From sequence record PP627278.1: a stretch of DNA of 58,418 nucleotides; one strand, given 5' to 3'. A program made the translations under genes and the position numbers. The stretch comes from Escherichia phage KS_A3. The notes beneath the pieces are model-generated. The model was not told where the DNA came from. It searched no databases and worked only from the letters and a program-made list of their open reading frames with translations. Of this stretch, positions 18,101 through 53,588 are shown piece after piece. Positions within the stretch are counted from its first letter, which is position 1, and each line of letters opens with the position of its first letter.

Positions 18101-18275
18101 GATTGAGCGAGCTGCTAATGGTCCTGCCATGGATGTAACCATACCTTTAGCAGTGAAAGGAAAGACAGCGTCGAGCGTAACAATAAGCGTTAAGGAGGAG
18201 TATACGAACGTCTATGGGAGCTACTTGCGCCCGTCTGTAATATTAATGACTCGCGGAACTGGTAGTTGGTCGTAA
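15141..18275 (+). CDS. tail tip / host specificity protein (lambda J-like)
   Basis: 1044 aa; N-terminal Gly/Ala-rich hydrophobic segment reminiscent of the lambda gpI C-terminus; fibronectin-III-like region; position after M/L/K-like genes. Confidence 0.7.
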   Translation: MEGLMPPAIIGAAIALGASAAAAASIISATTALVIGIAATAAGALLTKTPNMNFDAYKGQQERKQVLRAATASRSVVYGTTVASGLLAFAEEEAGDQDEGEWMHLVVVLASHKLEGIETIWLGDDGIDWFGENATWEFHNDRQTVDPFMLKHCPSWKEDMIGKGIAWLRLSLKFDAEKFPSGLPNVKVLKKGRRIYDPRSGQTVFSDNAALVILDYFRTYLKRKDENINWDQFKEAANICDEFVTNADNTTERRYRINGEFEVDEAPAKILDAMLEACGGELTYIGGKHGLLVGAYYGPATMTLDESCIAGDIKIIPETSYKERTNTITGTFVDPKQTYAEADFPPVVVKEWVEKDGGEITQDMDFRFVTSEYQAQRLANIILRRKRVGRTIEVPCNMKGYKFRPGMYVNVTISNIGMKNVEMRVTKWSFDPKGGINLVLRQDFLEMWDDAIGKPMERPDLVDLPSGAIAQPQNLQYQVLQISDVVQGVLTWSNIGQVAYNRVAVRQGGTTVWTAQVPGQNVRVTGLLRGAYTAHVQAVAYSGAISPEAYLEFNIQAPPPPTSIEVQQGYFAISLIPRSADLANVSTQYDFWTSGETRLSSVSTDVVEREATRKGMGTTWTSEGLKNDHTYYWYVRTINAFGSSAFVEVAALCFTTATDLMPQIDSEFKKTETYKELTTEITGVKDGVTQLSQTVVETEQRLSQSVSNVQQSVITLDGVVQDQGVTINEQGQLIDAQGKLIDTQGKTIETVSATVQETSKAVVDLEGNVNAQWGAKVQVDSKGQKYVAGIQLGMEGSGGAVQSYFMVSANNFAIYNPTNSAAELAFAVKNGQVFMKATFIENGTIDSAKIANQIQSTNYANNSAGWMINKNGSAQFNNVTIRGTVYASNGSFTGTVNATSGKFKGTVEATSFVGDVANMCVIAESAIPNTQTTSSRTWTKTFKDSSGSALSKDFVLLLSYSLTAYTSNQASRIIVTANIGGTSITRRIERAANGPAMDVTIPLAVKGKTASSVTISVKEEYTNVYGSYLRPSVILMTRGTGSWS

Positions 18276-25497: not shown

Positions 25498-26450
25498 TAG
25501 ACACGTTCTCCAATTAACACACCGCGAAGATTTTCCCCAAAGAATGCGCAAGGTTGCGGATATAAACTAAAGTCCGCAGTCTTAACCACATTTTCGAGTA
25601 ATAACAGGATGTCGATATTGTAAACTCCCGTTATTGATCTGTCCTGCAATACGAAGCTTGCACCTTCTGCATCATCGTAATGAGTACGCGCTAGACCGTT
25701 TTCAATATATACGCGAGGACGATCTTCCGCAAAAGGTTTGATTTTATGCAATCCCTCAAAAAGACCTGGATCAACAGGATGTGCATTGCATTGAACATTT
25801 AAAATACGACGTATATCGGGCCACTCCGCATCAATAAGCTGTGTTCGCAACCAGCGACCTTCCGGATAATGAAATGTGACATTGTTCTTGCTAACCTGAA
25901 TATGTGTCGGGTTAGCTTTAATGCGCAGTATTTCTTTGATAGCAACAGACGGTATTATGCAGTCAATAGGGAATTGATTACCGAACCAATATTCCGCAAT
26001 AGTGACGTTATTTGTAGCAAACAAGCTACCGTTATTGATCAGAATACCGCAAGCCCACGGACGGGAAGCATCGGACCCAACAAATGGAGCAACGGACTTT
26101 ACACCATGCACGAAGCGAGCGCCGTCTATTTCGTACAAATCGCCTTCAGGGAATACGTGCGGCGTTTCTTTATCAATGCAGCGTATAGCAACACGAAACG
26201 GACCGGACTTGATATTTAACTTACCGTTAGCCATCATTGTTAGCTGCACTGTTTCATCGCAGTTCGAAATAGCTTTAATCATAGGCCCAGCTTCGGGCTT
26301 GCAATCAATATCCAGCTCAATAGGGCTACCCAGTGCAATAACACCGTTAAAGCCCTGTACCTGTCCGTCACGAATAAGAAAACTGGTAAGCCCTTCTACC
26401 AGTTCCTTCTTCGCTACGGAGCCTTGAACAAATTTAAGAGCGTCTAACAT
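25497..26450 (-). CDS. hypothetical protein, translationally coupled to DNA polymerase (possible processivity factor)
   Basis: 317 aa; TAATG overlap with polymerase start; function not established from sequence. Confidence 0.4.
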   Translation of the reverse strand: MLDALKFVQGSVAKKELVEGLTSFLIRDGQVQGFNGVIALGSPIELDIDCKPEAGPMIKAISNCDETVQLTMMANGKLNIKSGPFRVAIRCIDKETPHVFPEGDLYEIDGARFVHGVKSVAPFVGSDASRPWACGILINNGSLFATNNVTIAEYWFGNQFPIDCIIPSVAIKEILRIKANPTHIQVSKNNVTFHYPEGRWLRTQLIDAEWPDIRRILNVQCNAHPVDPGLFEGLHKIKPFAEDRPRVYIENGLARTHYDDAEGASFVLQDRSITGVYNIDILLLLENVVKTADFSLYPQPCAFFGENLRGVLIGERV

Positions 26451-26677
26451 TAGCGGTCCTCGATTGCTCTAATTGTGGTTAAATCTAATTCACAGGTTGG
26501 AGGGTATCCATAAAGTCCCATTTGTTTTCCTTGTGCATTAAACCATGTACCTGACGGATCCTGCCACTGCTTAGGTGTCTTGTGGAGAAATACTACTCTG
26601 TTTTCACCGTAATAATTAATTCTTACTCCTGTGTGAGTATATTTACGTTTACCTTTTGGTCTTCTTAAGTTAGCCAT
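26450..26677 (-). CDS. hypothetical protein
   Basis: 75 aa basic ORF, ATGA-type overlap with neighbours. Confidence 0.4.
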   Translation of the reverse strand: MANLRRPKGKRKYTHTGVRINYYGENRVVFLHKTPKQWQDPSGTWFNAQGKQMGLYGYPPTCELDLTTIRAIEDR

Positions 26678-27597
26678 CAGAACAACTCCATTACACGATC
26701 ACGGAATGTGCCGTCATGGGTAGCGTTAATGTTTGCAGCAATTACACCATACGCCCATAAGTTGAAGGCAGCACGTGATTCATAGATTGTTGATAAACGT
26801 TCGTAAGTGAAACCGTTTTGCTCAAGGTATTTAAGGACAGCGTCTTGTTCAATTTCAGTTAATGTTGAAACATGCTTACCAAAATGATGGCGGTCCGGTG
26901 ACTTATCTGATACGCGCATTGGTCCCCACGGAGGGGTAACCACACTTCCAAACGCTGCCGCTTGAATCCAGGAGGATGAGTCACAGCTATACCACGGATA
27001 ACGCTCCATAATGGTTGTGGACGTAATACCAAACGCATGAAGTTTAATTTTAGCACGTCCGCTACCGTCGCAAATATATTTGTCCCACATGCGGTCCAGC
27101 CAAGTTTTAAGCGTGTCCGTTGAACGTCCTACCATGCCCCCAATGGTGATATATTCGTAGTTCTTCATGTAGTATTCAAGATAGCGGAAGTCCTCCCCAA
27201 AGTGAAAGCAAGGTAACGGTTTAGCACCGCGTGCTTCCATTTCAAGCTGGTTACGGTAGGTTTGCAACGGGTCACCAATACCGTCGAGCACCGACGCCAT
27301 TACAGCACCATCTTCTACGCGAAGGATGTCTTTGTTACGCTTGATGTATTCGCAGTATTCAACAATATCAATGTGAGCACCCAAAGAGTGCGCGGAGAAT
27401 GCACCTGAGTCGAGAAACACTTTAGCCCCATCCGCACGCATTTGATCAACATACTTCTGACGTCCAACGTAGTGGTATGATTCCAAAATATTTGGAAGGC
27501 TATTAACAATGTCTTTTTCCCGATCGTTTAACTTTTCATATCGTTGTTGACCAGCTTTATAGCCGTTGGTATATACCGCAGCGACAAACAGATGCAT
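26677..27597 (-). CDS. dpdA: DNA-guanine transglycosylase (tRNA-guanine transglycosylase-like, DpdA family)
   Basis: 306 aa; FLDSGAFS motif resembling the catalytic DSGG(F/Y)Q region of TGT enzymes; sits in operon with queC/D/E and folE. Confidence 0.65.
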   Translation of the reverse strand: MHLFVAAVYTNGYKAGQQRYEKLNDREKDIVNSLPNILESYHYVGRQKYVDQMRADGAKVFLDSGAFSAHSLGAHIDIVEYCEYIKRNKDILRVEDGAVMASVLDGIGDPLQTYRNQLEMEARGAKPLPCFHFGEDFRYLEYYMKNYEYITIGGMVGRSTDTLKTWLDRMWDKYICDGSGRAKIKLHAFGITSTTIMERYPWYSCDSSSWIQAAAFGSVVTPPWGPMRVSDKSPDRHHFGKHVSTLTEIEQDAVLKYLEQNGFTYERLSTIYESRAAFNLWAYGVIAANINATHDGTFRDRVMELF

Positions 27598-28154
27598 TAT
27601 TCCACCTCAAATTTATTACGCTTAGATCTGTTTTCTTCAATAGATAAGTATTGTAGGTTACTAAGGACGTGAAGTCCACTGACTCTTTTACCGCAAAGAG
27701 GTATAATATGATCAACCTCCATCCCATCCGGGCAGTTAGCGTAGAACAATTCAATTTGTTCTTTTTCAGACCACGCAGGGATTCTTAAAGACCTTTTCTT
27801 ATGCACTTCAAGGGAATGTAACCTTGATCTAGCTTTACCGTAATCTGTCTTAGCCCAGCGTTTCAGCCTTTCTTTATTTTGTTCTTTACCTTTCTCAGTA
27901 GAATTATAAGCAGCTTTTGAACGTTGAAGGGCTTCTTTTCCTTTCTGTGACTTATGGTATCTCTTAATAGCATTCCTTGCAGCTTCTGTTTTATTGTAAA
28001 TACGCATTCTTTTCTTTCGTGCTTCTCTGTCACAAGTAATACAATAGCCATCTACAGTCTTTCTTTCAGAAACATGACCTTTCGCACAAGGCTTACCAGT
28101 AAAATAATATTTCAAACCTCTTTCTTTTGCTTCAGCTCTTGTGATAATTTCCAT
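27597..28154 (-). CDS. HNH homing endonuclease
   Basis: 185 aa; Cys-rich zinc-binding N-terminus, DHIIPL...N HNH motif; inserted between dpdA and folE. Confidence 0.7.
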   Translation of the reverse strand: MEIITRAEAKERGLKYYFTGKPCAKGHVSERKTVDGYCITCDREARKKRMRIYNKTEAARNAIKRYHKSQKGKEALQRSKAAYNSTEKGKEQNKERLKRWAKTDYGKARSRLHSLEVHKKRSLRIPAWSEKEQIELFYANCPDGMEVDHIIPLCGKRVSGLHVLSNLQYLSIEENRSKRNKFEVE

Positions 28155-28224
28155 TGTCTTATACCAACTAAAAAGCCCATACCAGTATTATGACCGATAT
28201 GGGCTTGATCTGTAAAGCTATCTA

Positions 28225-28866
28225 TTATTTACAAGCTTCAAGGAACTCCCGGCGCCATTCTTTACCAATATCGCTACCATGCTCCAGTTCTGTAGCGCCC
28301 CGGAACGCTTTGGTAATAGTAGAGCTGCCACATACCTGCTTAACTCCGCGCGACTCCATGCACATATGCTTGGCGTCAACATAAACACATACAGCTTTCG
28401 GGTTTAAATGCTCCTGAATAGCGTCTGCAATCTGGTTAGTAAGACGTTCCTGAACTTGCAGTCGACGACTAAAAGCATCCACAACGCGAGACAGCTTACT
28501 AAGCCCAACAATCTTCCCATTGGGGACATAACCCACGACAGCATGACCGATGATAGGAGCCATGTGATGCTCACAATGACTATACACAGGGATATCACGG
28601 ACAATGACCATTTCATTGGTGTTTTCCGCCCCATCCTCAAAGGTTTTAAACAGACCAGCGATATCTACATCGTAACCGCTAAACCACGTTGCATAAGCTT
28701 TCGCTACACGCTCCGGAGTTTCCTCCAGCCCTGGGCGCAGAACCGCGCTAACTTCAATTTGGGATAGTAAAGTACGCACAGCGTTAGCAATACGGAATTG
28801 AACACCTTCACTATTAATACTATATTTAGACATGGTTTGCAGTTTCCTTGTTGTTAATGTGGTCAT
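28225..28866 (-). CDS. folE: GTP cyclohydrolase I
   Basis: 213 aa; SHCEHHM and GLSKL/QVQERLT motifs of FolE. Confidence 0.85.
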   Translation of the reverse strand: MTTLTTRKLQTMSKYSINSEGVQFRIANAVRTLLSQIEVSAVLRPGLEETPERVAKAYATWFSGYDVDIAGLFKTFEDGAENTNEMVIVRDIPVYSHCEHHMAPIIGHAVVGYVPNGKIVGLSKLSRVVDAFSRRLQVQERLTNQIADAIQEHLNPKAVCVYVDAKHMCMESRGVKQVCGSSTITKAFRGATELEHGSDIGKEWRREFLEACK

Positions 28867-28868
28867 AC

Positions 28869-29378
28869 TTACAGACTATAGTTTACGTGGCACTTCGAAG
28901 TTTCTTCGATGGTGCATTCTACAAGTTGAACACCATGTTCGTCAAGTAGCAGTGGCCCAATTACGTTGACCATATATGCAGCTAAGTTTTCCGCAGTAGG
29001 ATTGAATGGTAAAGATACCAGTGAATGAAAAAACGCATCACCATCAAGCTCACTTATACTCGGTCTGGAAGACATCTTCCAATCCTGGCTTACTAAATTT
29101 TTCAACCCGTCAATTAGCAAGTCTTTTTCCCAGTGCAGGAACTTATGATCCCAATTATCTTCCAACCACTGGCAGAGCGTAGTTTTAACCACACTAAAGT
29201 CGATAACTCGCCCAACTTCGTCCAGCAAAATACTATTCATTTCTTGCGACCCTTTTTTCGGCGCAACCTTAAAGTGAAACTTATAGTTATGACCGTGAAG
29301 GTGACGACACTTACTTTCATGACCCACAACACGGTGACCAGCGCAAATTTCATGTGAACGAATTACTGTATAGCTCAT
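28869..29378 (-). CDS. queD: 6-carboxy-5,6,7,8-tetrahydropterin synthase
   Basis: 169 aa; CAGHR and CRHLHGH zinc-binding motifs of QueD/PTPS. Confidence 0.8.
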   Translation of the reverse strand: MSYTVIRSHEICAGHRVVGHESKCRHLHGHNYKFHFKVAPKKGSQEMNSILLDEVGRVIDFSVVKTTLCQWLEDNWDHKFLHWEKDLLIDGLKNLVSQDWKMSSRPSISELDGDAFFHSLVSLPFNPTAENLAAYMVNVIGPLLLDEHGVQLVECTIEETSKCHVNYSL

Positions 29379-29379
29379 T

Positions 29380-29649
29380 TTAATCCTCTTCTACTCTATT
29401 CATAAATTCCAAATGACGACGCATAGTTTCTTCTTTTGTGGAAGAATTAAAATGTGACCAACCGTTATCTAAGAAGTATGCCCAGTAATATTCGCCATAT
29501 TTCTTCCGCATAGCTGGGATGGGGCATTTCCTTCTTTCAAGCTTAGGATTCTGCGATTTTATATAAGCTTGTTTTTCTTTAAGACTTAATGCTTCAAACC
29601 AATCAGCTAGCTCGTGAAACTTTAAATGACTTGGAGGTACAGGAATCAT
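29380..29649 (-). CDS. hypothetical protein within 7-deazaguanine cluster
   Basis: 89 aa ORF, coupled to neighbours. Confidence 0.4.
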   Translation of the reverse strand: MIPVPPSHLKFHELADWFEALSLKEKQAYIKSQNPKLERRKCPIPAMRKKYGEYYWAYFLDNGWSHFNSSTKEETMRRHLEFMNRVEED

Positions 29650-30263
29650 TTTAACACCTCTTTAGATTGTTCAATTTCTAACGCACGCTGTGCGGATGCA
29701 ATAATGTCTTTCAAATCTTCTACCACATGCTTATGACCGCGTTCGCCAGGCTGCAACGCCTTTTTAATCAAATGTTGTAAAGCTGGGTTAGTTGTCTTCC
29801 AAGCTTCCAAGACATCATACACGTCCACGATGCATTTTACAACATTGCCGTTTTCATCTTTACCATAAATAACTTTCTGGTATTTGTTTAGATTGTCGTC
29901 TTTATTCATAGCAGATCGTATATCCCAATCCTTTCCGTATACGCCCAGTCCATCAATAGCGAAACTTTCAGAAGTCACTTTAAATCCATTTTCACCGGCT
30001 TGTCTAACGTAATCTTCTGCGACAATATAACGCCAAGATATAACCGAATCCCTTTCTAACGGTATTACGTTATCACAGGATTTTTTATACCAGTCCCATC
30101 CTTGCCTATGATTTTTCTTAAGAGAACCGTCAGCTAATTGAACTTCAAACTGTTCGTTTTGAAGAAAAATGGGCATTCCTTTCCCATCGTGCTTGTGCCA
30201 AATTTTATTAAGATTATCTTTCATTTTACGCTCTCGCTGTACGTGAATGAACTTCGTAAACAA
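29646..30263 (-). CDS. hypothetical protein within 7-deazaguanine cluster
   Basis: 205 aa soluble protein; no motif recognised. Confidence 0.45.
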   Translation of the reverse strand: MFTKFIHVQRERKMKDNLNKIWHKHDGKGMPIFLQNEQFEVQLADGSLKKNHRQGWDWYKKSCDNVIPLERDSVISWRYIVAEDYVRQAGENGFKVTSESFAIDGLGVYGKDWDIRSAMNKDDNLNKYQKVIYGKDENGNVVKCIVDVYDVLEAWKTTNPALQHLIKKALQPGERGHKHVVEDLKDIIASAQRALEIEQSKEVLK

Positions 30264-30705
30264 CCCAAAGGATGGCAGATGCTGTGAACTTACTTAAGCT
30301 CATTGCTACCATTGATCCCGGATTAATAATACCTATAATACTTAAGAACACAATGGAGTCAATCGGTACAGCTACTAAAGAGCTGATAAATACGCGTTGA
30401 TGGAAAGGCTTCTTGGTGACCGTGTATACTACATAGTCCGCAAACTCACTAAGCGCAAAAGACGCAACGGATGCAACTACAACCGCAGGATCACCGAACA
30501 CCCAGCTAAGGATGCAACCAACAATCATTGCAGGGATGACGCCTTTGCCAGCGTTACGCTGTGCGTAATCACGCAGAACAAAGATAATGCCTACAAAGAA
30601 AGCCATCATGGGGACTACGCCAAGTGGCGTATTAAGCATCGGAAGATAGGAAAAGCCCAGGTTTACGAATGTAATTGCAGCCAGATAAGCAACGATAAAT
30701 TTCAT
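30226..30705 (-). CDS. small polytopic membrane protein, candidate 7-deazaguanine precursor transporter (YhhQ/QueT-like)
   Basis: 159 aa with about five hydrophobic helices, SD GGAG; located between queC and queD; family assignment from context and loose resemblance only. Confidence 0.35.
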   Translation of the reverse strand: MKFIVAYLAAITFVNLGFSYLPMLNTPLGVVPMMAFFVGIIFVLRDYAQRNAGKGVIPAMIVGCILSWVFGDPAVVVASVASFALSEFADYVVYTVTKKPFHQRVFISSLVAVPIDSIVFLSIIGIINPGSMVAMSLSKFTASAILWVVYEVHSRTARA

Positions 30706-30825
30706 ACTTTTGTTCTCCAGTTTTAACAGCGCTATTCGCTGGTTGTTGGGTTTAAAAGCTTTAGTAGTATAGTTGGGTTACCGCACCCTAAACAATGCGC
30801 TAGCGGTGCGGTTTTCGCGGTAAGA

Positions 30826-31548
30826 TCAAACGTGTTTGCTGTAAGCGTTATCCATAAATTCGCTGTACCCTTTAGCACGCAATTTGCACGCAGGACATTC
30901 ACCGCAACCATATCCCCAGTCATGCAGAGTGCGACGGACGCCATTATAGCAACTATGGGACTGTTCAATTACTGTGGTTAAGAAACCAACCTTATCCGCC
31001 AGCTCAAACGTTTCTGCTTTATTTAAACGCATAAGCGGAGTAACAAAATGGATATCTGTTTCATATCCAACGTTTAACGTAGCTTCAAGCAAATCTACAA
31101 ACTGCTGACGGCAATCCGGATAACCGCTATAGTCCGTCTCACAAACGCCTGTAACCACATATCGGGCTCCAACCTTCTGCGCATAGGCGTGCGCGGTAGT
31201 CAGGAAAAGAGCATTACGGTTGGGCACAAAGCTTGCCGGAAGGTTGTTGTGCTGTTCGTGATGTTCGTTAACATCACCTTCGTTCCCGATTAAAGCGCTA
31301 TTGCCAATTTGTTTCAAAGCAGGTAATTCAAAGACAACAAACGGGACATCGTGCTCTTTACAAATTTGATTAGCACAAGCCAGCTCAATGTTATGACGTT
31401 GACCGTATGCAAAACCAATAGCGTAGACCTTATCATAGTTATTCAGTGCAAGACCCAAACAGGTCACGCTGTCCTGGCCGCCAGACAGGACAACAACGGC
31501 GGAGTTATGATTTTTTACAGGGAATACCAGTTTATCTAATTTATTCAT
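30826..31548 (-). CDS. queC: 7-cyano-7-deazaguanine synthase
   Basis: 240 aa; PP-loop VVLSGGQDS; C-terminal Cys cluster CYNG...CGECPAC. Confidence 0.85.
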   Translation of the reverse strand: MNKLDKLVFPVKNHNSAVVVLSGGQDSVTCLGLALNNYDKVYAIGFAYGQRHNIELACANQICKEHDVPFVVFELPALKQIGNSALIGNEGDVNEHHEQHNNLPASFVPNRNALFLTTAHAYAQKVGARYVVTGVCETDYSGYPDCRQQFVDLLEATLNVGYETDIHFVTPLMRLNKAETFELADKVGFLTTVIEQSHSCYNGVRRTLHDWGYGCGECPACKLRAKGYSEFMDNAYSKHV

Positions 31549-31753
31549 TTACTTCACCTTCAATATCACAAGGGTTGATTGTTACGTTAGACATTACAAT
31601 TGGATGATTGCGCGCTCCAATTGTACTAACGTGATTAATATCTAATTCTACATGCACACCTTGCATAGTAGCATGGGCAATTGAAGAATTAAGTTTTTCT
31701 ACCAGCTCAGTGATCATTTCCTGATGCTGTTTCGCTTCTTCCAAAGTGATCAT
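31541..31753 (-). CDS. hypothetical protein
   Basis: 70 aa ORF. Confidence 0.35.
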   Translation of the reverse strand: MITLEEAKQHQEMITELVEKLNSSIAHATMQGVHVELDINHVSTIGARNHPIVMSNVTINPCDIEGEVNE

Positions 31754-32008
31754 TTAAACCTCCGTTAATGTTTGAGTCCAGTCTAAGCCTTCAAGATCTA
31801 CATCAGCTATTTCATCGTACTCGTAAGCTTCCGGATCTGCTGGCAACCATCTATCAAAGCGATGGCTAAGTTCTGGAGGAATTGCTTCATATCCCCAAAC
31901 CTTCCCATCCTTGTCGGCTGCCAGATAATCAACTCGACTTGGAACGGTTAAAGCGACACCACAAAAATTAACATCTTTAGTATGCACAACCTGGCTTAAC
32001 ACACGCAT
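31754..32008 (-). CDS. hypothetical protein, member of three-copy paralogous family
   Basis: 84 aa; shares AxDxDGKV...Y and W..TL.E motifs with ORFs 52708-52950 and 53292-53588. Confidence 0.45.
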   Translation of the reverse strand: MRVLSQVVHTKDVNFCGVALTVPSRVDYLAADKDGKVWGYEAIPPELSHRFDRWLPADPEAYEYDEIADVDLEGLDWTQTLTEV

Positions 32009-32715
32009 TATTCCACCCCGATATATTTGTGAACCTGAAGCTGCAACGTGTAACCGTGTTTCATACAGCTTTGGACAACGGCTTGGATATTACTGTGGTT
32101 AAGGTCTTCATCCTGCTCGTCCATTGGCTGTAAATATATCTTACCCTTGAAACCCTTCGGAGGTCTAGCGATAAATGGCGTAGCTTGATGATCTAATGCC
32201 TGAAGCGGCAAACCATCTTCCACGTTTACACAGCACGCTTTAAGTACATATTTAAATGCATTAGCGCGGCGCAGCACAGAAGGATGAATCTTTGAGGTCT
32301 TGGGACTACATACAATTACAGGTAACTGGGAAAAGTTCTTAGGTAAAGGCATAGACCCATTAGTTTCAATTTGCACCAAATACCCGCGCGATAACAGTTG
32401 TTCAATAAACGGGTTAATTTGCTGACGGAACGGTTCACCCCCAGTGATAACCACAAGTGAGGTGCTATTACCTGATTCCAGCTTACGGCTTTCGATTAAA
32501 CGCATAATATCGACAATGTGATAAAGACTACGACCAACAGTATAATCTGTATCACAGCCAGGACATTGCAGATTACACCCAGCAAGACGCACAAATACAG
32601 CAGGTTGGCCGCAGAATGGACCTTCACCTTGAATGGTAGAGAATACCGAATGCACGTCTAAATACATATCGTTTTCTTTAGAACGGGACTCGGGAGCTTG
32701 TTGATTAATATTCAT
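32008..32715 (-). CDS. queE: 7-carboxy-7-deazaguanine synthase (radical SAM)
   Basis: 235 aa; radical-SAM Cys triad CNLQCPGC; ITGGEP motif. Confidence 0.85.
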   Translation of the reverse strand: MNINQQAPESRSKENDMYLDVHSVFSTIQGEGPFCGQPAVFVRLAGCNLQCPGCDTDYTVGRSLYHIVDIMRLIESRKLESGNSTSLVVITGGEPFRQQINPFIEQLLSRGYLVQIETNGSMPLPKNFSQLPVIVCSPKTSKIHPSVLRRANAFKYVLKACCVNVEDGLPLQALDHQATPFIARPPKGFKGKIYLQPMDEQDEDLNHSNIQAVVQSCMKHGYTLQLQVHKYIGVE

Positions 32716-32730
32716 CTTAAATCCTCTAGT

Positions 32731-32760
32731 GAAAAAGAAAGCGCCTCATTGGGCGCTTTC
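32731..32760 (-). terminator. hairpin terminator/attenuator upstream of queE
   Basis: AAAGCGCC-TCATTG-GGCGCTTT followed by a U-run on the - strand; only about 16 nt before the queE start codon. Confidence 0.35.
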
Positions 32761-32784
32761 ATTATAACGTGATATGTTTTGATA

Positions 32785-33591
32785 TTACAAGCCGTTCAGG
32801 GCTTCCGGTACTGGTACAGGTACGCGACCAGTCACACCATTAAATTTCTTCCAGCGTGCATACTGGGTTTTAACGGTATCTTCGTTCAGACCATGTCGAC
32901 CAGCCAGGTTCAGAACATAAGAGATCGGAGCAGGCTGACCCAGCGTAGCGCTAATCTGGTCCATCAGAGCCCAGGCACGACCGCAGGAAGTTTCAGGTTG
33001 TGGACGACGAACACCATTCTGTTCAGGCATACGGTTCGCTTCTTTCGCTTTTTCACGTTCAGCTTTTTCGCGGGCTTTTTCAGCAGCCTTTTCAGCCTGT
33101 TTAGCAGCGCGGATCTTGTCTTTGAAGCCTTTGATAAACGAATCCAGTTCGTCAACCATGCTCTGAGCAGCACTTACTGCACCGGACAGATCTTCATCTT
33201 TGGATTTTTTAACAACTGCTTTCAGCTCTTTCAGTTTATTCTTAAAAAGCTTCAGCTGTTCAGAACCCTGAAATTCAGCTACCGTAATCTCTTCAATAGT
33301 GCCTTTATCGGCAACATCGGATAAAACAGACCTCACGGTTTCAACTCCGCGGGAAAGAGCGGTAAATTTATTTTCCGCTACAGCACGAATTTCAGCTTGT
33401 TTCTTTTCAGCGGCAGCTTTTTTCTCTGCTTCTTTTTTCTCTTTTGCTACGCGTGCAGCTTCAGCGGCAGCGGCTTTTTTAGCTTCTTTCTTTGCAGGCT
33501 TAGCAGATTTTTCAGCGGCAGCAGCGGCTGCGGCAGCAGCGGCTGCGGCAGCAGCGGCTTTCTTATCTTCAATATTACTCATTTTCTTCAC
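32785..33591 (-). CDS. lysine/alanine-rich histone H1-like protein with poly-Ala tract
   Basis: 268 aa; N-terminal run of 15 Ala then KAAK/EKKA repeats, globular C-terminal domain. Confidence 0.55.
   Translation of the reverse strand: MKKMSNIEDKKAAAAAAAAAAAAAAAEKSAKPAKKEAKKAAAAEAARVAKEKKEAEKKAAAEKKQAEIRAVAENKFTALSRGVETVRSVLSDVADKGTIEEITVAEFQGSEQLKLFKNKLKELKAVVKKSKDEDLSGAVSAAQSMVDELDSFIKGFKDKIRAAKQAEKAAEKAREKAEREKAKEANRMPEQNGVRRPQPETSCGRAWALMDQISATLGQPAPISYVLNLAGRHGLNEDTVKTQYARWKKFNGVTGRVPVPVPEALNGL
33515..33559. repeat. perfect 3x tandem 15-mer (GCGGCAGCAGCGGCT) encoding poly-Ala
   Basis: three identical 15-nt units read directly in the sequence. Confidence 0.9.
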
Positions 33592-42851: not shown

Positions 42852-43373
42852 TTAACCATTGTTGGAAAATTCACCGTGCAAAATTGCACGCATTTCCTTC
42901 AGCCATTGTGTCGCTTTATTTTTACCTTCATCATTAAATGGAAAATACCTATAATAGTTTTTACCATTCAGTCGAATTTGCGCTAACCAACTATTGCTGG
43001 TTTTAGATTTGTTATGTGTAAGACCTTTAACCCCGCTTGAATTGTTACTGTATTTAAATCTATTATGTGCGTTCTGACTAGAATTGCAAGCCCTCAAATT
43101 GTATTGAGCATTATTCAGTTTATTGCAGTCATCATGATCAATTTCTTCAGGTTCTTCATCATAGAGCATTTTCCAGATTATGCGGTGAACAAAATATGAA
43201 ATGCCATCAATCTTTGTTCTAAGATGACCAGTTGTATGAACCCATCCAACGCAAGATCCCTTTGGAGCTCTGTTGCTTCTATGAATCTTCCATGTTAATG
43301 CACCCGTCGACGGATCATAGTCAAATAGCTCCAGAAGCTGCTCTTGTGTAAGGTGTATAGGCTTCGCTTTCAT
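42852..43373 (-). CDS. HNH homing endonuclease
   Basis: 173 aa; IDHDDCNKLNN HNH motif. Confidence 0.65.
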   Translation of the reverse strand: MKAKPIHLTQEQLLELFDYDPSTGALTWKIHRSNRAPKGSCVGWVHTTGHLRTKIDGISYFVHRIIWKMLYDEEPEEIDHDDCNKLNNAQYNLRACNSSQNAHNRFKYSNNSSGVKGLTHNKSKTSNSWLAQIRLNGKNYYRYFPFNDEGKNKATQWLKEMRAILHGEFSNNG

Positions 43374-49894: not shown

Positions 49895-50377
49895 TTATGC
49901 GTCCAGTCCGTGGTTGGCGTGAAATTTGTAATGCTCTTCCGCTTGTTTACGGGCCTGTTTTGCGTCCTCTATAGTATCATATAAACCTAGATACTTTTTC
50001 AATCCGTTTATTTGAATGTAAGCCTGAAATTTACATGCCTTTTTATTAAAGTAAACTCCTGTTACTCCGGTAGAGTTATTTATTGCCCTGCTAAGATTTT
50101 TACTATTATCGCTTGGCAACACTAAGCGCAAATTCTCTATGCGGTCGTCCCATGTACAATGATTAATATGGTCTATTTGATGCCCTTCCGGTATCGGGCC
50201 TTTATGCAACTCCCATACTAACCTTGAACGACGATATAGTTTTCCCTTGTATCCTATCAGGATGTATCCGCGCTTATTTGGTACACCAGCTTTACTACCG
50301 ATAGAAATCTGTTTAGCTGGTTTTATTTTCCAAAATAATTCTCCGTTTTGATAGCTGAAGATATTATTTAAGTCCAT
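49895..50377 (-). CDS. HNH homing endonuclease with AP2-like DNA-binding domain
   Basis: 160 aa; IDHINHCTWDDRIENL HNH motif; GVTGVYFNKK...YLGLYDTIEDA AP2-like segment. Confidence 0.65.
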   Translation of the reverse strand: MDLNNIFSYQNGELFWKIKPAKQISIGSKAGVPNKRGYILIGYKGKLYRRSRLVWELHKGPIPEGHQIDHINHCTWDDRIENLRLVLPSDNSKNLSRAINNSTGVTGVYFNKKACKFQAYIQINGLKKYLGLYDTIEDAKQARKQAEEHYKFHANHGLDA

Positions 50378-52465: not shown

Positions 52466-52717
52466 ATGTGCGACTCCAGTGCAAGCGCTGCACCCAGCAC
52501 CTCCAGCAATGTGGTTACAGAGGTAAATGCAATGCGATTAGGCCCATATCGCGGGTATTATGGTCGGGCAGCATGGAATGACGCTACTCAACGTTTTGAA
52601 GGCTGGATTATCTGTCCGGAACGTGTTAAATTTCACTCCGTAAAAGAGAAAAATATCGTTCTTAATTTTCAAAAATGTGTCACTAAATATGTAGAGGAGC
52701 AAGAAGAATGCGTGTAA
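52466..52717 (+). CDS. hypothetical protein
   Basis: 83 aa, strong SD GAGGAGG. Confidence 0.5.
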   Translation: MCDSSASAAPSTSSNVVTEVNAMRLGPYRGYYGRAAWNDATQRFEGWIICPERVKFHSVKEKNIVLNFQKCVTKYVEEQEECV

Positions 52718-52950
52718 AAGACGAGCAAAAGACAGTTGACTACTTCGGAATGCAAATTGTTGTTCCGGAATGGGTTAAATGGCTTGCTGTCGATGGTGAC
52801 GGTAAATTATTCGGTTATGAATGTGAGCCCGACATTTTAGTTAATGAAGATTGGGATGAATGGTACAGTGAAGAAGGTAAATGCCGCTGCATTACAGAAG
52901 TCATCCTTGAAGAAGAACATTGGTCACAAACCTTAGTGGAGCTTTTTTAA
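52708..52950 (+). CDS. hypothetical protein, paralogous family member
   Basis: 80 aa; VPEWVKWLAVDGDGKLFGYE...WSQTLVEL. Confidence 0.5.
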   Translation: MRVKDEQKTVDYFGMQIVVPEWVKWLAVDGDGKLFGYECEPDILVNEDWDEWYSEEGKCRCITEVILEEEHWSQTLVELF

Positions 52951-53291: not shown

Positions 53292-53588
53292 ATGCTGTAT
53301 TTAGGAATGGACGAAACTGGACACGCGATTCCTTCTGTTAACAAGGAGACGCAAGTATTTACCGACTATTACGGGTCTGCTATCCCTGTAGAGCCCTGGG
53401 CTAACTTTATCGCTGTAGATGCAGATGGTAAAGTTCATTGTTATGACGGCAAACCTTCTTGCTATCAATCTGGTAAGCAATGGATGCTTGGCGTATACGG
53501 TTTGCAGGTCCGCTACTGCGGCGAAGTTGACATTGAAGGTGTGGACTGGCGCGATACGTTGAAGGAGATTAAAGATGTCCGCGGCTGA
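53292..53588 (+). CDS. hypothetical protein, paralogous family member
   Basis: 98 aa; VEPWANFIAVDADGKVHCYD...WRDTLKEI. Confidence 0.5.
   Translation: MLYLGMDETGHAIPSVNKETQVFTDYYGSAIPVEPWANFIAVDADGKVHCYDGKPSCYQSGKQWMLGVYGLQVRYCGEVDIEGVDWRDTLKEIKDVRG

What the first reader, a model, noticed from the sequence alone, without database searches (positions are those of the whole stretch)
26677..32715. Phage-encoded 7-deazaguanine DNA-modification cluster (dpdA, folE, queD, queC, queE)
Seen in sequence: one 6 kb co-directional - strand segment encodes proteins with FolE (SHCEHHM), QueD (CRHLHGH), QueE (radical-SAM CNLQCPGC), QueC (SGGQDS PP-loop plus Cys cluster) signatures and a TGT-like protein (FLDSGAFS). 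Established knowledge: FolE, QueD, QueE and QueC convert GTP to preQ0, and DpdA-family transglycosylases exchange guanine in DNA for a 7-deazaguanine base; such clusters are known from bacterial dpd islands and some coliphages, so the family itself is not new. Inference: no QueF, ArcS or amidotransferase-QueC fusion was recognised, so the expected product is 2'-deoxy-preQ0 unless the unknown ORFs in the cluster add a further step. A phage that replaces G in its own DNA would resist many restriction enzymes.
Basis: partly seen in the sequence, partly recalled or inferred. Interest (0 to 1): 0.8.

Follow-up and report, generated by a model that had tools for sequence, protein, structure and literature searches.

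The report
Known Seuratvirus preQ0 DNA-modification gene cluster
This is the well-studied gene cluster that lets Seuratvirus coliphages swap about a third of the guanines in their DNA for the modified base preQ0 to escape restriction enzymes. The window is almost identical to an already deposited phage genome, so the finding is correct but ordinary.

Summary

The interpretation (dPreQ0 in phage DNA) is supported, but the system is already known:
- The window matches Escherichia phage KS_S4 (Seuratvirus, Queuovirinae). It is 100% identical over the cluster. Over the 50 kb compared there are 3 mismatches and one 111-bp indel.
- The cluster is orthologous to that of phage CAjan: DpdA 95.8% (identical from residue 37 to 306), QueC 98.3%, QueE 100%, YhhQ-like 99.4%, FolE 90.8%, QueD 73.6%.
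- For CAjan, LC-MS showed about 32% of G replaced by dPreQ0 only. Deleting dpdA abolished the modification, and the target motifs are GA and GGC.

No Gat domain was found anywhere in the window. No QueF, ArcS-like, methyltransferase or formyltransferase domain, and no DpdB-K, was found in the ORFs scanned, so dPreQ0 is the expected end product.

The catalytic aspartates of DpdA (D63, D206) are present and conserved.

Novelty: already known. Interest is low.

The parts
26450..26677 (-). orf75, homologue of CAjan gp34. A small basic protein of unknown function whose start overlaps the dpdA stop.
   Evidence: 100% aa identity to CAjan gp34. At least 97% identity in 33 Seuratvirus records, always next to dpdA. 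PHROG 38388, no known function. Counted as part of the 12-gene cluster in PMC7544227.
26677..27597 (-). dpdA (DpdA1 subfamily), the DNA guanine / 7-deazaguanine transglycosylase.
27597..28154 (-). HNH185, an HNH homing-endonuclease-like gene inserted between folE and dpdA. Not part of the pathway.
   Evidence: PHROG 1035 (endonuclease VII) at 2e-16. Weak Pfam HNH match at residues 143-170. Absent from CAjan, where gp36 occupies the slot. Found in only 4 Seuratvirus records. Relatives at 45% identity sit next to dpdA in some Nonagvirus phages, and a relative in Pseudomonas phage NP1 is annotated as a homing endonuclease.
28173..28206 (-). Terminator-like hairpin (14 pairs plus a T-run) between folE and HNH185.
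   Evidence: Consensus scan only. The number of such sites in the region is no higher than in shuffled sequence.
28225..28866 (-). folE, GTP cyclohydrolase I (GTP to H2NTP).
   Evidence: PF01227 at 1.3e-63. TIGR00063 scores 195.7 bits against a cut-off of 181.6. 90.8% identical to CAjan FolE. 81% identical to 9g FolE, which complemented an E. coli folE deletion (PMC6884629). The alignment to CAjan begins at residue 32, so the true start may be an internal Met.
28869..29378 (-). queD, 6-carboxytetrahydropterin synthase.
   Evidence: PF01242 at 1.7e-23, above the gathering score. The QueD equivalog TIGR03367 scores 68.1 bits, below its cut-off of 89.25; the profile match spans about 45 extra residues in the protein. 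CxxxHGH motif at residue 24. 73.6% identical to CAjan and 72% to 9g QueD.
29380..29649 (-). orf89, a variable small ORF of unknown function in the slot of CAjan gp39.
   Evidence: No Pfam, PHROG or NCBIfam hit. Found in only 11 phage records; those identifiable are Seuratvirus or Nonagvirus phages.
29646..30224 (-). orf192, homologue of CAjan gp40. Unknown function, with a widespread C-terminal domain.
   Evidence: 55% identical to CAjan gp40. The C-terminal 80 aa are 50% identical to the C-terminus of 9g gp07. The same domain occurs in 709 phage records, mostly Salmonella and Escherichia phages of about 40-48 kb; their modification genes were not checked. No Pfam hit.
30226..30705 (-). yhhQ-like gene, a putative preQ0 / queuosine-precursor transporter.
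   Evidence: 99.4% identical to CAjan gp41, annotated 'putative preQ0 transporter'. Weak matches below cut-off to PF02592 Vut_1 (2.5e-5) and TIGR00697 queuosine precursor transporter (8.3e-5). 32 synonymous against 1 non-synonymous change versus CAjan. The CAjan yhhQ deletion mutant stays modified (PMC7544227).
30826..31548 (-). queC, 7-cyano-7-deazaguanine (preQ0) synthase. Stand-alone, with no Gat domain.
   Evidence: PF06508 at 6.1e-75 over the full profile. TIGR00364 scores 243 bits against a cut-off of 150. 98.3% identical to CAjan QueC. Only residues 220-457 of 9g Gat-QueC match it, at 29% identity.
31541..31753 (-). orf70, homologue of CAjan gp44. Unknown function.
   Evidence: 92.9% identical to CAjan gp44. 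Found in 39 records, next to queC/queE wherever the records are annotated. Its database name 'radical SAM domain-containing protein' is not credible for a 70-aa protein with a single Cys.
31754..32008 (-). orf84, a variable small ORF of unknown function.
   Evidence: Absent from CAjan. PHROG 1972, unknown function. Relatives occur in jumbo phages and 48-kb Klebsiella phages. Two paralogues elsewhere in the window.
32008..32715 (-). queE, the radical-SAM 7-carboxy-7-deazaguanine synthase.
   Evidence: 100% identical to CAjan gp45. 64% identical to 9g QueE, which complemented an E. coli queE deletion (PMC6884629). PHROG 2076 at 5.9e-69. The five best NCBIfam hits are all QueE models, all below their cut-offs. 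CxxxCxxC at Cys 47/51/54.
32737..32790 (-). Candidate upstream regulatory region: a sigma-70-like promoter match (32790-32761) followed by a G+C-rich hairpin with a T-run (32760-32737), just upstream of queE.
   Evidence: Consensus scans only. Function not shown.

Best explanation
The segment is the 7-deazaguanine DNA-modification module of a Seuratvirus coliphage.

FolE, QueD, QueE and QueC convert GTP, via H2NTP, CPH4 and CDG, into the free base preQ0 (7-cyano-7-deazaguanine). A small YhhQ-like membrane protein may also import preQ0.

After replication, the TGT-like transglycosylase DpdA (DpdA1 subfamily) excises guanine from double-stranded phage DNA and inserts preQ0. By analogy with TGT and bacterial DpdA, this is a double-displacement reaction. 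D206 would act as the nucleophile that forms a covalent enzyme-DNA intermediate. D63, in the DSGxF motif, would act as the general acid/base.

The expected product is 2'-deoxy-preQ0 at GA and GGC sites, roughly 28-32% of all G. It partly shields the genome from type I and type II restriction.

[quoted passage not shown] What is shown elsewhere, for CAjan and 9g: the product, the essentiality of dpdA, folE and queC, the target motifs and the protection from restriction. What is inferred: that this phage behaves in the same way.
For: Identity of the window:
- 100% identical to phage KS_S4 (Seuratvirus) over 26400-32800.
- Over the 50 kb compared, 3 mismatches and one 111-bp indel.

Orthology to CAjan:
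- DpdA 95.8%, QueC 98.3%, QueE 100%, YhhQ-like 99.4%, FolE 90.8%, QueD 73.6%.
- All 13 DpdA differences lie in residues 2-36.

Published results for CAjan:
- 70,628 dPreQ0 per 10^6 nt, with dADG, dG+, dPreQ1 and dQ all below 6 per 10^6 nt. No modification at all in the dpdA deletion mutant (PMC6884629, read).
- The folE, queC and dpdA deletions lose the modification and become restriction-sensitive. The yhhQ deletion does not. Target motifs are GA and GGC (PMC7544227).

Support from 9g: FolE, QueD and QueE are 81, 72 and 64% identical to the 9g proteins that complemented E. coli mutants.

Profile hits are listed.

DpdA:
- D63, D105, G153-G154 and D206 are invariant or nearly invariant in 55 homologues of 30-66% identity.
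- Three independent DpdA models align the same segment and place D206 on the nucleophile D256 of Salmonella DpdA (residue roles from PMC10164549).

Other points:
- 28.3% of G in the window lies in GA or GGC, against about 32% measured in CAjan.
- Purifying selection: 42-50 synonymous against 4-13 amino-acid changes in dpdA and queC versus CAjan.
- The gene order queE-queC-queD-folE-dpdA is the order conserved across Queuovirinae (PMC10484667).
Against: - No chemical data exist for this particular phage.
- The AlphaFold model of DpdA is only moderately confident. Mean pLDDT is 59.8, and it is below 50 from residue 206 onwards. The fold match therefore rests on the N-terminal two thirds of the protein.
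- Sequence links between the phage DpdA and solved DpdA/TGT structures are weak: E = 0.44 for the profile against 7ui4, and 1e-3 to 2e-3 for the DpdA HMMs. There was no Pfam TGT hit.
- QueE and QueD score below NCBIfam's equivalog cut-offs.
- Three small ORFs differ from CAjan, so an extra tailoring step cannot be formally excluded.
Confidence: 0.93

Rival explanations
1. The cluster modifies tRNA (queuosine or archaeosine) rather than DNA, as the GenBank product name 'queuine tRNA-ribosyltransferase' implies. On this reading it would boost translation of phage genes.
For: KS_S4 and CAjan annotate the gene as queuine tRNA-ribosyltransferase. The fold is TGT-like. An early Seuratvirus paper considered queuosine-related roles (PMC5758909).
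Against: 9g dpdA did not complement an E. coli tgt deletion, but it did put dPreQ0 into plasmid DNA. The CAjan dpdA deletion loses all DNA modification (PMC6884629). The window's protein is 95.8% identical to CAjan DpdA and 68.6% identical to 9g DpdA. Pfam's TGT family did not match it, and no QueF or QueA was found in the ORFs scanned.
Confidence: 0.02
2. preQ0 is modified further (to dG+, dADG, dPreQ1 or a new derivative) by one of the uncharacterised ORFs: orf75, orf89, orf192, orf70 or orf84.
For: Five ORFs in the cluster have no assigned function. orf89 and orf84 are absent from CAjan, so the CAjan chemistry does not cover them.
Against: - None of the five has an amidotransferase, reductase, methyltransferase or any other enzyme-domain hit.
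- orf89 and orf84 are under 90 aa.
- The orf84 family occurs in jumbo phages and 48-kb Klebsiella phages. The orf192 C-terminal domain occurs in 709 phage records, mostly small Salmonella and Escherichia siphophages. I did not check whether those phages have modification genes.
- The Gat domain of 9g Gat-QueC has no match in six frames.
- Ten other hypothetical ORFs of 100 aa or more gave no such domain.
- orf84 is 98.8% identical in phage Seurat. The BASEL study treats Seuratvirus phages as dPreQ0 phages (PMC8594841).
Confidence: 0.04
3. The cluster is a decaying or inactive remnant.
For: None specific. The HNH insertion next to dpdA might have been thought disruptive.
Against: All ORFs are intact and their catalytic motifs are present. 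Synonymous changes greatly outnumber amino-acid changes relative to CAjan. The HNH gene lies between genes, not within one.
Confidence: 0.01

Closest known systems
7-deazaguanine (dPreQ0) modification cluster of Escherichia phage CAjan, gp34-gp45 (Seuratvirus, Queuovirinae)
   Same: Same gene order and same enzymes. DpdA 95.8% (residues 37-306 identical), QueC 98.3%, QueE 100%, YhhQ-like 99.4%, FolE 90.8%, QueD 73.6%, gp34 100%, gp44 92.9%. Same position in the genome, between the helicase/gp46-47 genes and the clamp and polymerase genes.
   Different: Three small cassettes are exchanged. HNH185 replaces gp36, and orf89 replaces gp39. orf84 is added between the gp44 homologue and queE, while gp43 is missing. 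The gp40 homologue is only 55% identical.
dG+ (2'-deoxyarchaeosine) system of Enterobacteria phage 9g (Nonagvirus)
   Same: [quoted passage not shown] DpdA 68.6%, FolE 81%, QueD 72%, QueE 64% identical. The C-terminal domain of 9g gp07 is shared with orf192.
   Different: 9g carries a Gat-QueC fusion (471 aa). The window has a stand-alone QueC (240 aa, 29% identical to the QueC half of the fusion) and no Gat domain anywhere. 9g has no yhhQ-like gene and no gp34 homologue in its annotated cluster. Its product is dG+ rather than dPreQ0 (PMC6884629).
Bacterial Dpd restriction-modification island (Salmonella Montevideo DpdA/DpdB/DpdC plus DpdD-K; DpdA structure 7ui4)
Pseudomonas phage iggy dPreQ0 system (Queuovirinae)
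   Same: Same pathway, same gene order and same product (PMC10484667).
   Different: iggy DpdA targets GA only and modifies about 16.5% of G. The CAjan-type enzyme targets GA and GGC. iggy shares less than 10% nucleotide similarity with other published phage genomes; what is shared is concentrated in dpdA and the preQ0 genes.

Membership tests
Phage dPreQ0 DNA-modification system (Seuratvirus / CAjan type) | Complete preQ0 pathway: FolE, QueD, QueE and a stand-alone QueC | tested here: met
   Profile hits, motifs, and 73.6-100% identity to the CAjan proteins.
Phage dPreQ0 DNA-modification system (Seuratvirus / CAjan type) | DpdA1-type DNA transglycosylase encoded with the pathway | tested here: met
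   95.8% identical to CAjan DpdA and 68.6% to 9g DpdA. PHROG 887 at 4.3e-94.
Phage dPreQ0 DNA-modification system (Seuratvirus / CAjan type) | Absence of enzymes that convert preQ0 further (Gat-QueC, ArcS, QueF/QueF-L, DpdL/M/N) | tested here: met
   The Gat domain has no six-frame match. The only QueF signal is the sub-threshold homology of FolE itself. No such domain was found in the cluster ORFs or in 10 other hypothetical ORFs of 100 aa or more. DpdL/M/N were not searched with their own sequences.
Phage dPreQ0 DNA-modification system (Seuratvirus / CAjan type) | Conserved order queE-queC-queD-folE-dpdA within the replication module | tested here: met
   the order as described in PMC10484667.
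Phage dPreQ0 DNA-modification system (Seuratvirus / CAjan type) | dPreQ0 actually present in virion DNA (about 30% of G, at GA and GGC sites) | not testable with these tools
   Only the sequence context could be counted: 28.3% of G lies in GA or GGC. Confirmation needs LC-MS/MS or nanopore sequencing.
TGT / DpdA transglycosylase superfamily | TGT-like (beta/alpha)8 barrel fold | tested here: met
TGT / DpdA transglycosylase superfamily | Catalytic aspartates: a general acid/base in a DSGxF motif, a base-recognising Asp, and a nucleophile Asp | tested here: met
   D63 (FLDSGAF, with F67 four residues on, like D95/F99 of Salmonella DpdA), D105 and D206. D206 is invariant, and D63 and D105 are at least 90% conserved, in 55 homologues. 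D206 aligns to D256, and G153-G154-M155 to G206-G207-M208, of 7ui4 (20-residue tag offset inferred). The same segment is aligned by the NCBIfam and PADLOC DpdA models. The pairings D63 = D95 and D105 = D130 rest on motif and spacing only.
TGT / DpdA transglycosylase superfamily | Structural Zn2+ site (CxCxxC...H), reported as conserved in TGTs and bacterial DpdA (PMC10164549) | tested here: not met
   The protein has only four Cys (82, 130, 176, 205) and no CxCxxC motif. No Cys column is invariant or nearly invariant among the 55 homologues. This separates the phage DpdA1 group from bacterial DpdA and TGT. It does not affect membership of DpdA1, which is defined by 9g and CAjan DpdA.
Nonagvirus dG+ system (9g type) | QueC fused to a glutamine amidotransferase domain (Gat-QueC) | tested here: not met
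   QueC has 240 aa and no N-terminal extension. Residues 1-219 of 9g Gat-QueC have no credible match in the window.
Bacterial Dpd restriction-modification island | DpdB ATPase and DpdC partners, plus the DpdD-K restriction module | tested here: not met
   A PADLOC scan of the cluster's ORFs of unknown function and its two upstream neighbours found only a weak DpdA match. The replication and structural genes of the window were not scanned with PADLOC.

The most novel reading that the evidence does not exclude
The small conserved ORFs of the Seuratvirus cluster are not passengers but accessory factors of DpdA. The main candidate is the 75-aa basic protein whose start overlaps the dpdA stop; it is 100% conserved in 26 records. 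The gp44 and gp40 homologues are further candidates. They might, for instance, give the enzyme its second target motif (GGC, which the GA-only phage iggy lacks) or couple it to the replisome, since the clamp gene lies next door.

Nothing here tests this. Counter-evidence exists: 9g lacks a gp34 homologue in its annotated cluster yet modifies about 25% of its G (PMC10516641). 9g DpdA plus Gat-QueC alone reached 9-18% of G on plasmids (PMC6884629).
Probability: 0.08. Interest if true: 0.4.

Novelty: already known. Interest (0 to 1): 0.1.

Why it matters
It matters little as a discovery. The cluster is the defining trait of the subfamily Queuovirinae. It is annotated in the near-identical GenBank record (KS_S4), and it has been dissected genetically and chemically in phage CAjan.

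It still has practical value for anyone working with this phage:
- About 28% of its G (those in GA or GGC) should be dPreQ0.
- That modification partly blocks type I and type II restriction.
- It disturbs nanopore base-calling.
- It makes the DNA a target for defences that recognise 7-deazaguanine (a DNA glycosylase, bioRxiv 10.1101/2025.10.29.685425).

The only open points are the roles of the conserved small ORFs and of the yhhQ-like gene. The latter is under strong purifying selection, although its deletion does not affect the modification in the laboratory.

Tried and rejected
- Direct sequence searches of DpdA against PDB sequences found nothing relevant. This held for the single protein, a shallow 29-sequence profile and an 82-aa fragment. 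Only a profile of 55 diverse homologues gave a weak alignment to 7ui4 (E = 0.44).
- Pfam has no hit for DpdA, even at E = 5.
- The AlphaFold model built from a 29-sequence alignment of about 70% identity was mediocre (pLDDT 59.8). I ran no further search on it. A more diverse alignment could only have been built from representative proteins that the tool does not accept.
- I suspected that the orf192 C-terminal domain was a DUF3310-like domain. Pfam did not support this, so I dropped the idea.
- I considered whether HNH185 could be a functional partner of DpdA, because relatives sit next to dpdA in some Nonagvirus phages. I rejected this. CAjan lacks it and is still fully modified. Its distribution is sporadic, and it also occurs in phages of unrelated hosts, including one where it is annotated as a homing endonuclease. 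That pattern fits a homing endonuclease.
- Promoter and terminator scans gave only consensus-level matches.
- Two fetched loci (L002, L006) were not available to Python scripts, so I pasted the sequences in or refetched them.

Full report
**Observation.** The six-frame ORF list shows an unbroken run of - strand ORFs across 26450-32715. In the order of transcription they are:
- queE (32008-32715)
- orf84 (31754-32008)
- orf70 (31541-31753)
- queC (30826-31548)
- a yhhQ-like gene (30226-30705)
- orf192 (29646-30224)
- orf89 (29380-29649)
- queD (28869-29378)
- folE (28225-28866)
- an HNH endonuclease-like gene (27597-28154)
- dpdA (26677-27597)
- orf75 (26450-26677)

Neighbouring genes overlap or lie within 2 bp of each other, except for three gaps of 69-120 bp. 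The profile matches are far beyond chance:
- FolE: PF01227 at 1.3e-63, and above the TIGR00063 cut-off.
- QueC: PF06508 at 6.1e-75, and above the TIGR00364 cut-off.
- QueD: PF01242 at 1.7e-23.
- QueE: PHROG 2076 at 5.9e-69. Its five best NCBIfam hits are all QueE models, though all fall below their curated cut-offs.
- DpdA: PHROG 887 at 4.3e-94.

The only correction is that the cluster, as defined in the literature, extends to 26450.

**What the window is.** Megablast of 26400-32800 against GenBank phages gave a 100% match over the full length to Escherichia phage KS_S4 (PP627282.1; Seuratvirus, Queuovirinae). There were 59 further matching records, most of them Escherichia phages. Across the first 50 kb of that record the window differs by 3 mismatches and by having one copy rather than two of a 111-bp unit near 18120-18230. 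The GenBank record already annotates the five enzymes. KS_S4 is one of six Seuratvirus isolates from a Japanese sewage phage library (bioRxiv 10.1101/2024.04.14.589459).

**Orthology to the characterised system.** I compared the cluster with phage CAjan (NC_028776). Identities are DpdA 95.8%, QueC 98.3%, QueE 100%, YhhQ-like 99.4%, FolE 90.8%, QueD 73.6%, gp34 100%, gp44 92.9% and gp40 55%. All 13 amino-acid differences in DpdA fall in residues 2-36, and residues 37-306 are identical. Synonymous changes far outnumber amino-acid changes: dpdA 42 against 13, queC 50 against 4, yhhQ-like 32 against 1. The genes are therefore under purifying selection.

The published results for CAjan are direct.
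- LC-MS/MS found 70,628 dPreQ0 per 10^6 nt, about 32% of G. dADG, dG+, dPreQ1 and dQ were all below 6 per 10^6 nt.
- A dpdA deletion removed the modification completely (PMC6884629; PMC10516641).
- Deleting folE, queC or dpdA abolished the nanopore modification signal and made the DNA restriction-sensitive. Deleting yhhQ did not.
- The modified sites are GA and GGC (PMC7544227).

The window's FolE, QueD and QueE are 81, 72 and 64% identical to the 9g proteins, which complemented the matching E. coli mutants. In the window, 28.3% of all G (both strands) lies in GA or GGC. If every such site were modified, that would be 62,700 sites per 10^6 nt, close to the CAjan measurement.

**DpdA.**
- Pfam does not recognise the protein, and phmmer against PDB sequences finds nothing.
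- A search of 1.84 billion representative proteins shows a large family: 5,625 representatives at E <= 1e-3.
- In an alignment of 55 members sharing 30-66% identity with the query, H187, S204, D206 and R275 are invariant. D63-S64-G65-A66, L104-D105, H132, G153-G154, Y200-P201-W202, S207 and W210 are at least 90% conserved.
- A profile of that alignment gives a weak match to the Salmonella Montevideo DpdA crystal chain 7ui4 (E = 0.44). It pairs "YIalGGlv" with "ITMGGMV" and "PwYSvDStsW" with "GVTSIDSTT".
- Subtracting an inferred 20-residue tag, window G153-G154-M155 correspond to G206-G207-M208, and window D206 to D256. D256 is the proposed nucleophile, and the paper reports that alanine substitution of the nucleophile Asp and of D95 each abolished guanine exchange (PMC10164549).
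- The NCBIfam and PADLOC DpdA models align the same segment independently (E = 0.0022 and 0.0013).
- D63 sits in FLDSGAF with F67 four residues downstream, as D95 and F99 do in the Salmonella enzyme. That pairing is inferred from motif and spacing alone.

The catalytic-residue test is passed. One defining feature of TGT and bacterial DpdA is missing: there is no CxCxxC zinc motif. The protein has only four scattered cysteines, and none is conserved across the family.

**What is absent.**
- The amidotransferase half of 9g Gat-QueC (residues 1-219) has no six-frame match in the window. Only the QueC half matches, at 29% identity.
- The only QueF signal is FolE's own sub-threshold match.
- The cluster's unknown ORFs have no enzyme-domain hit in Pfam, NCBIfam, PHROGs or PADLOC.
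- Ten other hypothetical ORFs of 100 aa or more elsewhere in the window gave only DUF669, DUF7173 and a weak PriA-domain hit.
- No DpdB-K homologue was found among the ORFs scanned with PADLOC.

The expected end product is therefore dPreQ0, not dG+, dADG or dPreQ1.

**The other ORFs.** A DNA comparison with CAjan shows a mosaic. Conserved blocks of 75-96% nucleotide identity are interrupted by replaced cassettes at 27602-28166 (HNH185 in place of gp36), 29386-29645 (orf89 in place of gp39), 29893-30141 (the divergent middle of orf192) and 31755-32005 (orf84; CAjan instead has gp43 on the other side of gp44).
- **HNH185** matches PHROG 1035 (endonuclease VII) and, weakly, Pfam HNH. It occurs at over 97% identity in only four Seuratvirus records. 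Relatives at 45% identity lie next to dpdA in some Nonagvirus phages, and others occur in Pseudomonas, Vibrio and cyanophages. The divergent first 36 codons of dpdA lie directly beside it. This pattern fits a homing endonuclease with a co-conversion tract, not a pathway component, and CAjan is fully modified without it.
- **orf84** belongs to a family also found in jumbo phages and in 48-kb Klebsiella phages. It has two paralogues in the window.
- **orf89** is confined to 11 phage records; those identifiable are Seuratvirus or Nonagvirus phages.
- **orf192** has a C-terminal domain found in 709 phage records, mostly Salmonella and Escherichia phages of about 40-48 kb whose modification genes I did not check. 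The same domain is at the C-terminus of 9g gp07.
- **orf75 and orf70** are essentially restricted to Seuratvirus and always sit in the cluster. orf75 is 100% conserved at the protein level in 26 records. Their function is unknown. The database label 'radical SAM domain-containing protein' for the 70-aa orf70 is not credible.
- **The yhhQ-like protein** has 159 aa. It gives only sub-threshold matches to Vut_1 and to the queuosine-precursor transporter family, so 'putative transporter' is as far as the evidence goes.

**Mechanism.** The following rests on established knowledge of the queuosine pathway and of TGT and DpdA enzymology (PMC10164549, PMC10516641).
- FolE converts GTP to H2NTP, QueD makes CPH4, the radical-SAM enzyme QueE makes CDG, and QueC makes preQ0 via ADG.
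- DpdA then acts on duplex DNA after replication. [quoted passage not shown]
- The modification gives partial resistance to restriction. In CAjan and the BASEL Seuratvirus phages this means resistance to type I and type II systems but sensitivity to type III (PMC6884629; PMC8594841).
- It also creates a target for at least one host DNA glycosylase that recognises 7-deazaguanine (bioRxiv 10.1101/2025.10.29.685425).

These steps have been shown for orthologues. For this phage they are inferred.

**Comparison and novelty.** The system is a member of the CAjan-type Seuratvirus dPreQ0 module.
- It differs from the Nonagvirus (9g) module in lacking the Gat domain.
- It differs from bacterial Dpd islands in lacking DpdB/C and the restriction genes, in lacking the zinc motif, and in its much higher modification level.
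- It differs from phage iggy in the expected dual GA/GGC motif.

Nothing in the window departs from what is published, and the sequence itself is essentially a deposited, annotated genome. The most novel reading still open is that the conserved small ORFs, orf75 in particular, are accessory factors of DpdA. I rate it at about 8%.

Noticed in passing
window 18120-18230: This 111-bp unit occurs once in the window but as a perfect tandem duplication in the KS_S4 GenBank record, in the 3' part of the central tail-fibre J gene. With one copy, the window's J gene would have the length of CAjan's. Apart from this there are only 3 mismatches in the first 50 kb.
   Followed up: partly
window 27597-28154 and dpdA codons 2-36 (about 27490-27594): An HNH homing-endonuclease-like gene sits between folE and dpdA. 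It is present in only 4 Seuratvirus records, and 45%-identical relatives lie next to dpdA in some Nonagvirus phages. All 13 amino-acid differences between this DpdA and CAjan's lie in the 36 codons directly beside it, which looks like a co-conversion tract from homing.
   Followed up: partly
proteins P0126, P0129, P0143 (relatives, not in the window); corresponds to window DpdA residues 203-206: Some DpdA homologues of about 610-640 aa carry an insertion of roughly 310 aa. It begins with Cys and ends in ...GN, followed by Ser. It lies between YPW(Y/H) and S(V/C)DSSSW, two residues before the nucleophile Asp. This looks like an intein at the active site.
   Followed up: partly
window 31541-31753: orf70 (CAjan gp44 homologue) is labelled 'radical SAM domain-containing protein' in GenBank and in PHROG 26258. 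It has only 70 aa, a single Cys and no radical-SAM profile hit. The name is probably an annotation error.
   Followed up: partly
window 30226-30705: The yhhQ-like gene shows 32 synonymous against 1 amino-acid difference relative to CAjan, which indicates strong purifying selection. Yet deleting it in CAjan left the modification unchanged in the laboratory (PMC7544227).
   Followed up: partly
window 26450-26677: orf75 is a basic 75-aa protein whose start overlaps the dpdA stop. It is 100% identical at the protein level in 26 Seuratvirus records, is always adjacent to dpdA, and has no counterpart in the annotated 9g cluster. Its function is unknown.
   Followed up: partly
window 52708-52944 and 53364-53570 (+ strand): Two paralogues of orf84 (36% and 30% identity) lie in the early-gene region on the other strand.
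   Followed up: no
window 32785-33591: The ORF upstream of queE (CAjan gp46 homologue, 87.6% identical over the C-terminal 201 aa) starts with a run of about 15 alanines. Its Lys/Ala/Glu-rich N-terminal 67 aa did not align to CAjan. No family hit apart from a weak MukB-like coiled-coil match.
   Followed up: no
window about 42852-43373 and about 49895-50377 (- strand; KS_S4 record coordinates minus 111): The KS_S4 record annotates two further HNH endonuclease genes here. The first lies between dUTPase and RusA, where CAjan has no gene.
   Followed up: no
window 26677-27597 (DpdA): The phage DpdA has no CxCxxC zinc-binding motif. It has four scattered Cys, none conserved across the family. The structural Zn site is reported as conserved in TGTs and in bacterial DpdA (PMC10164549).
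   Followed up: partly
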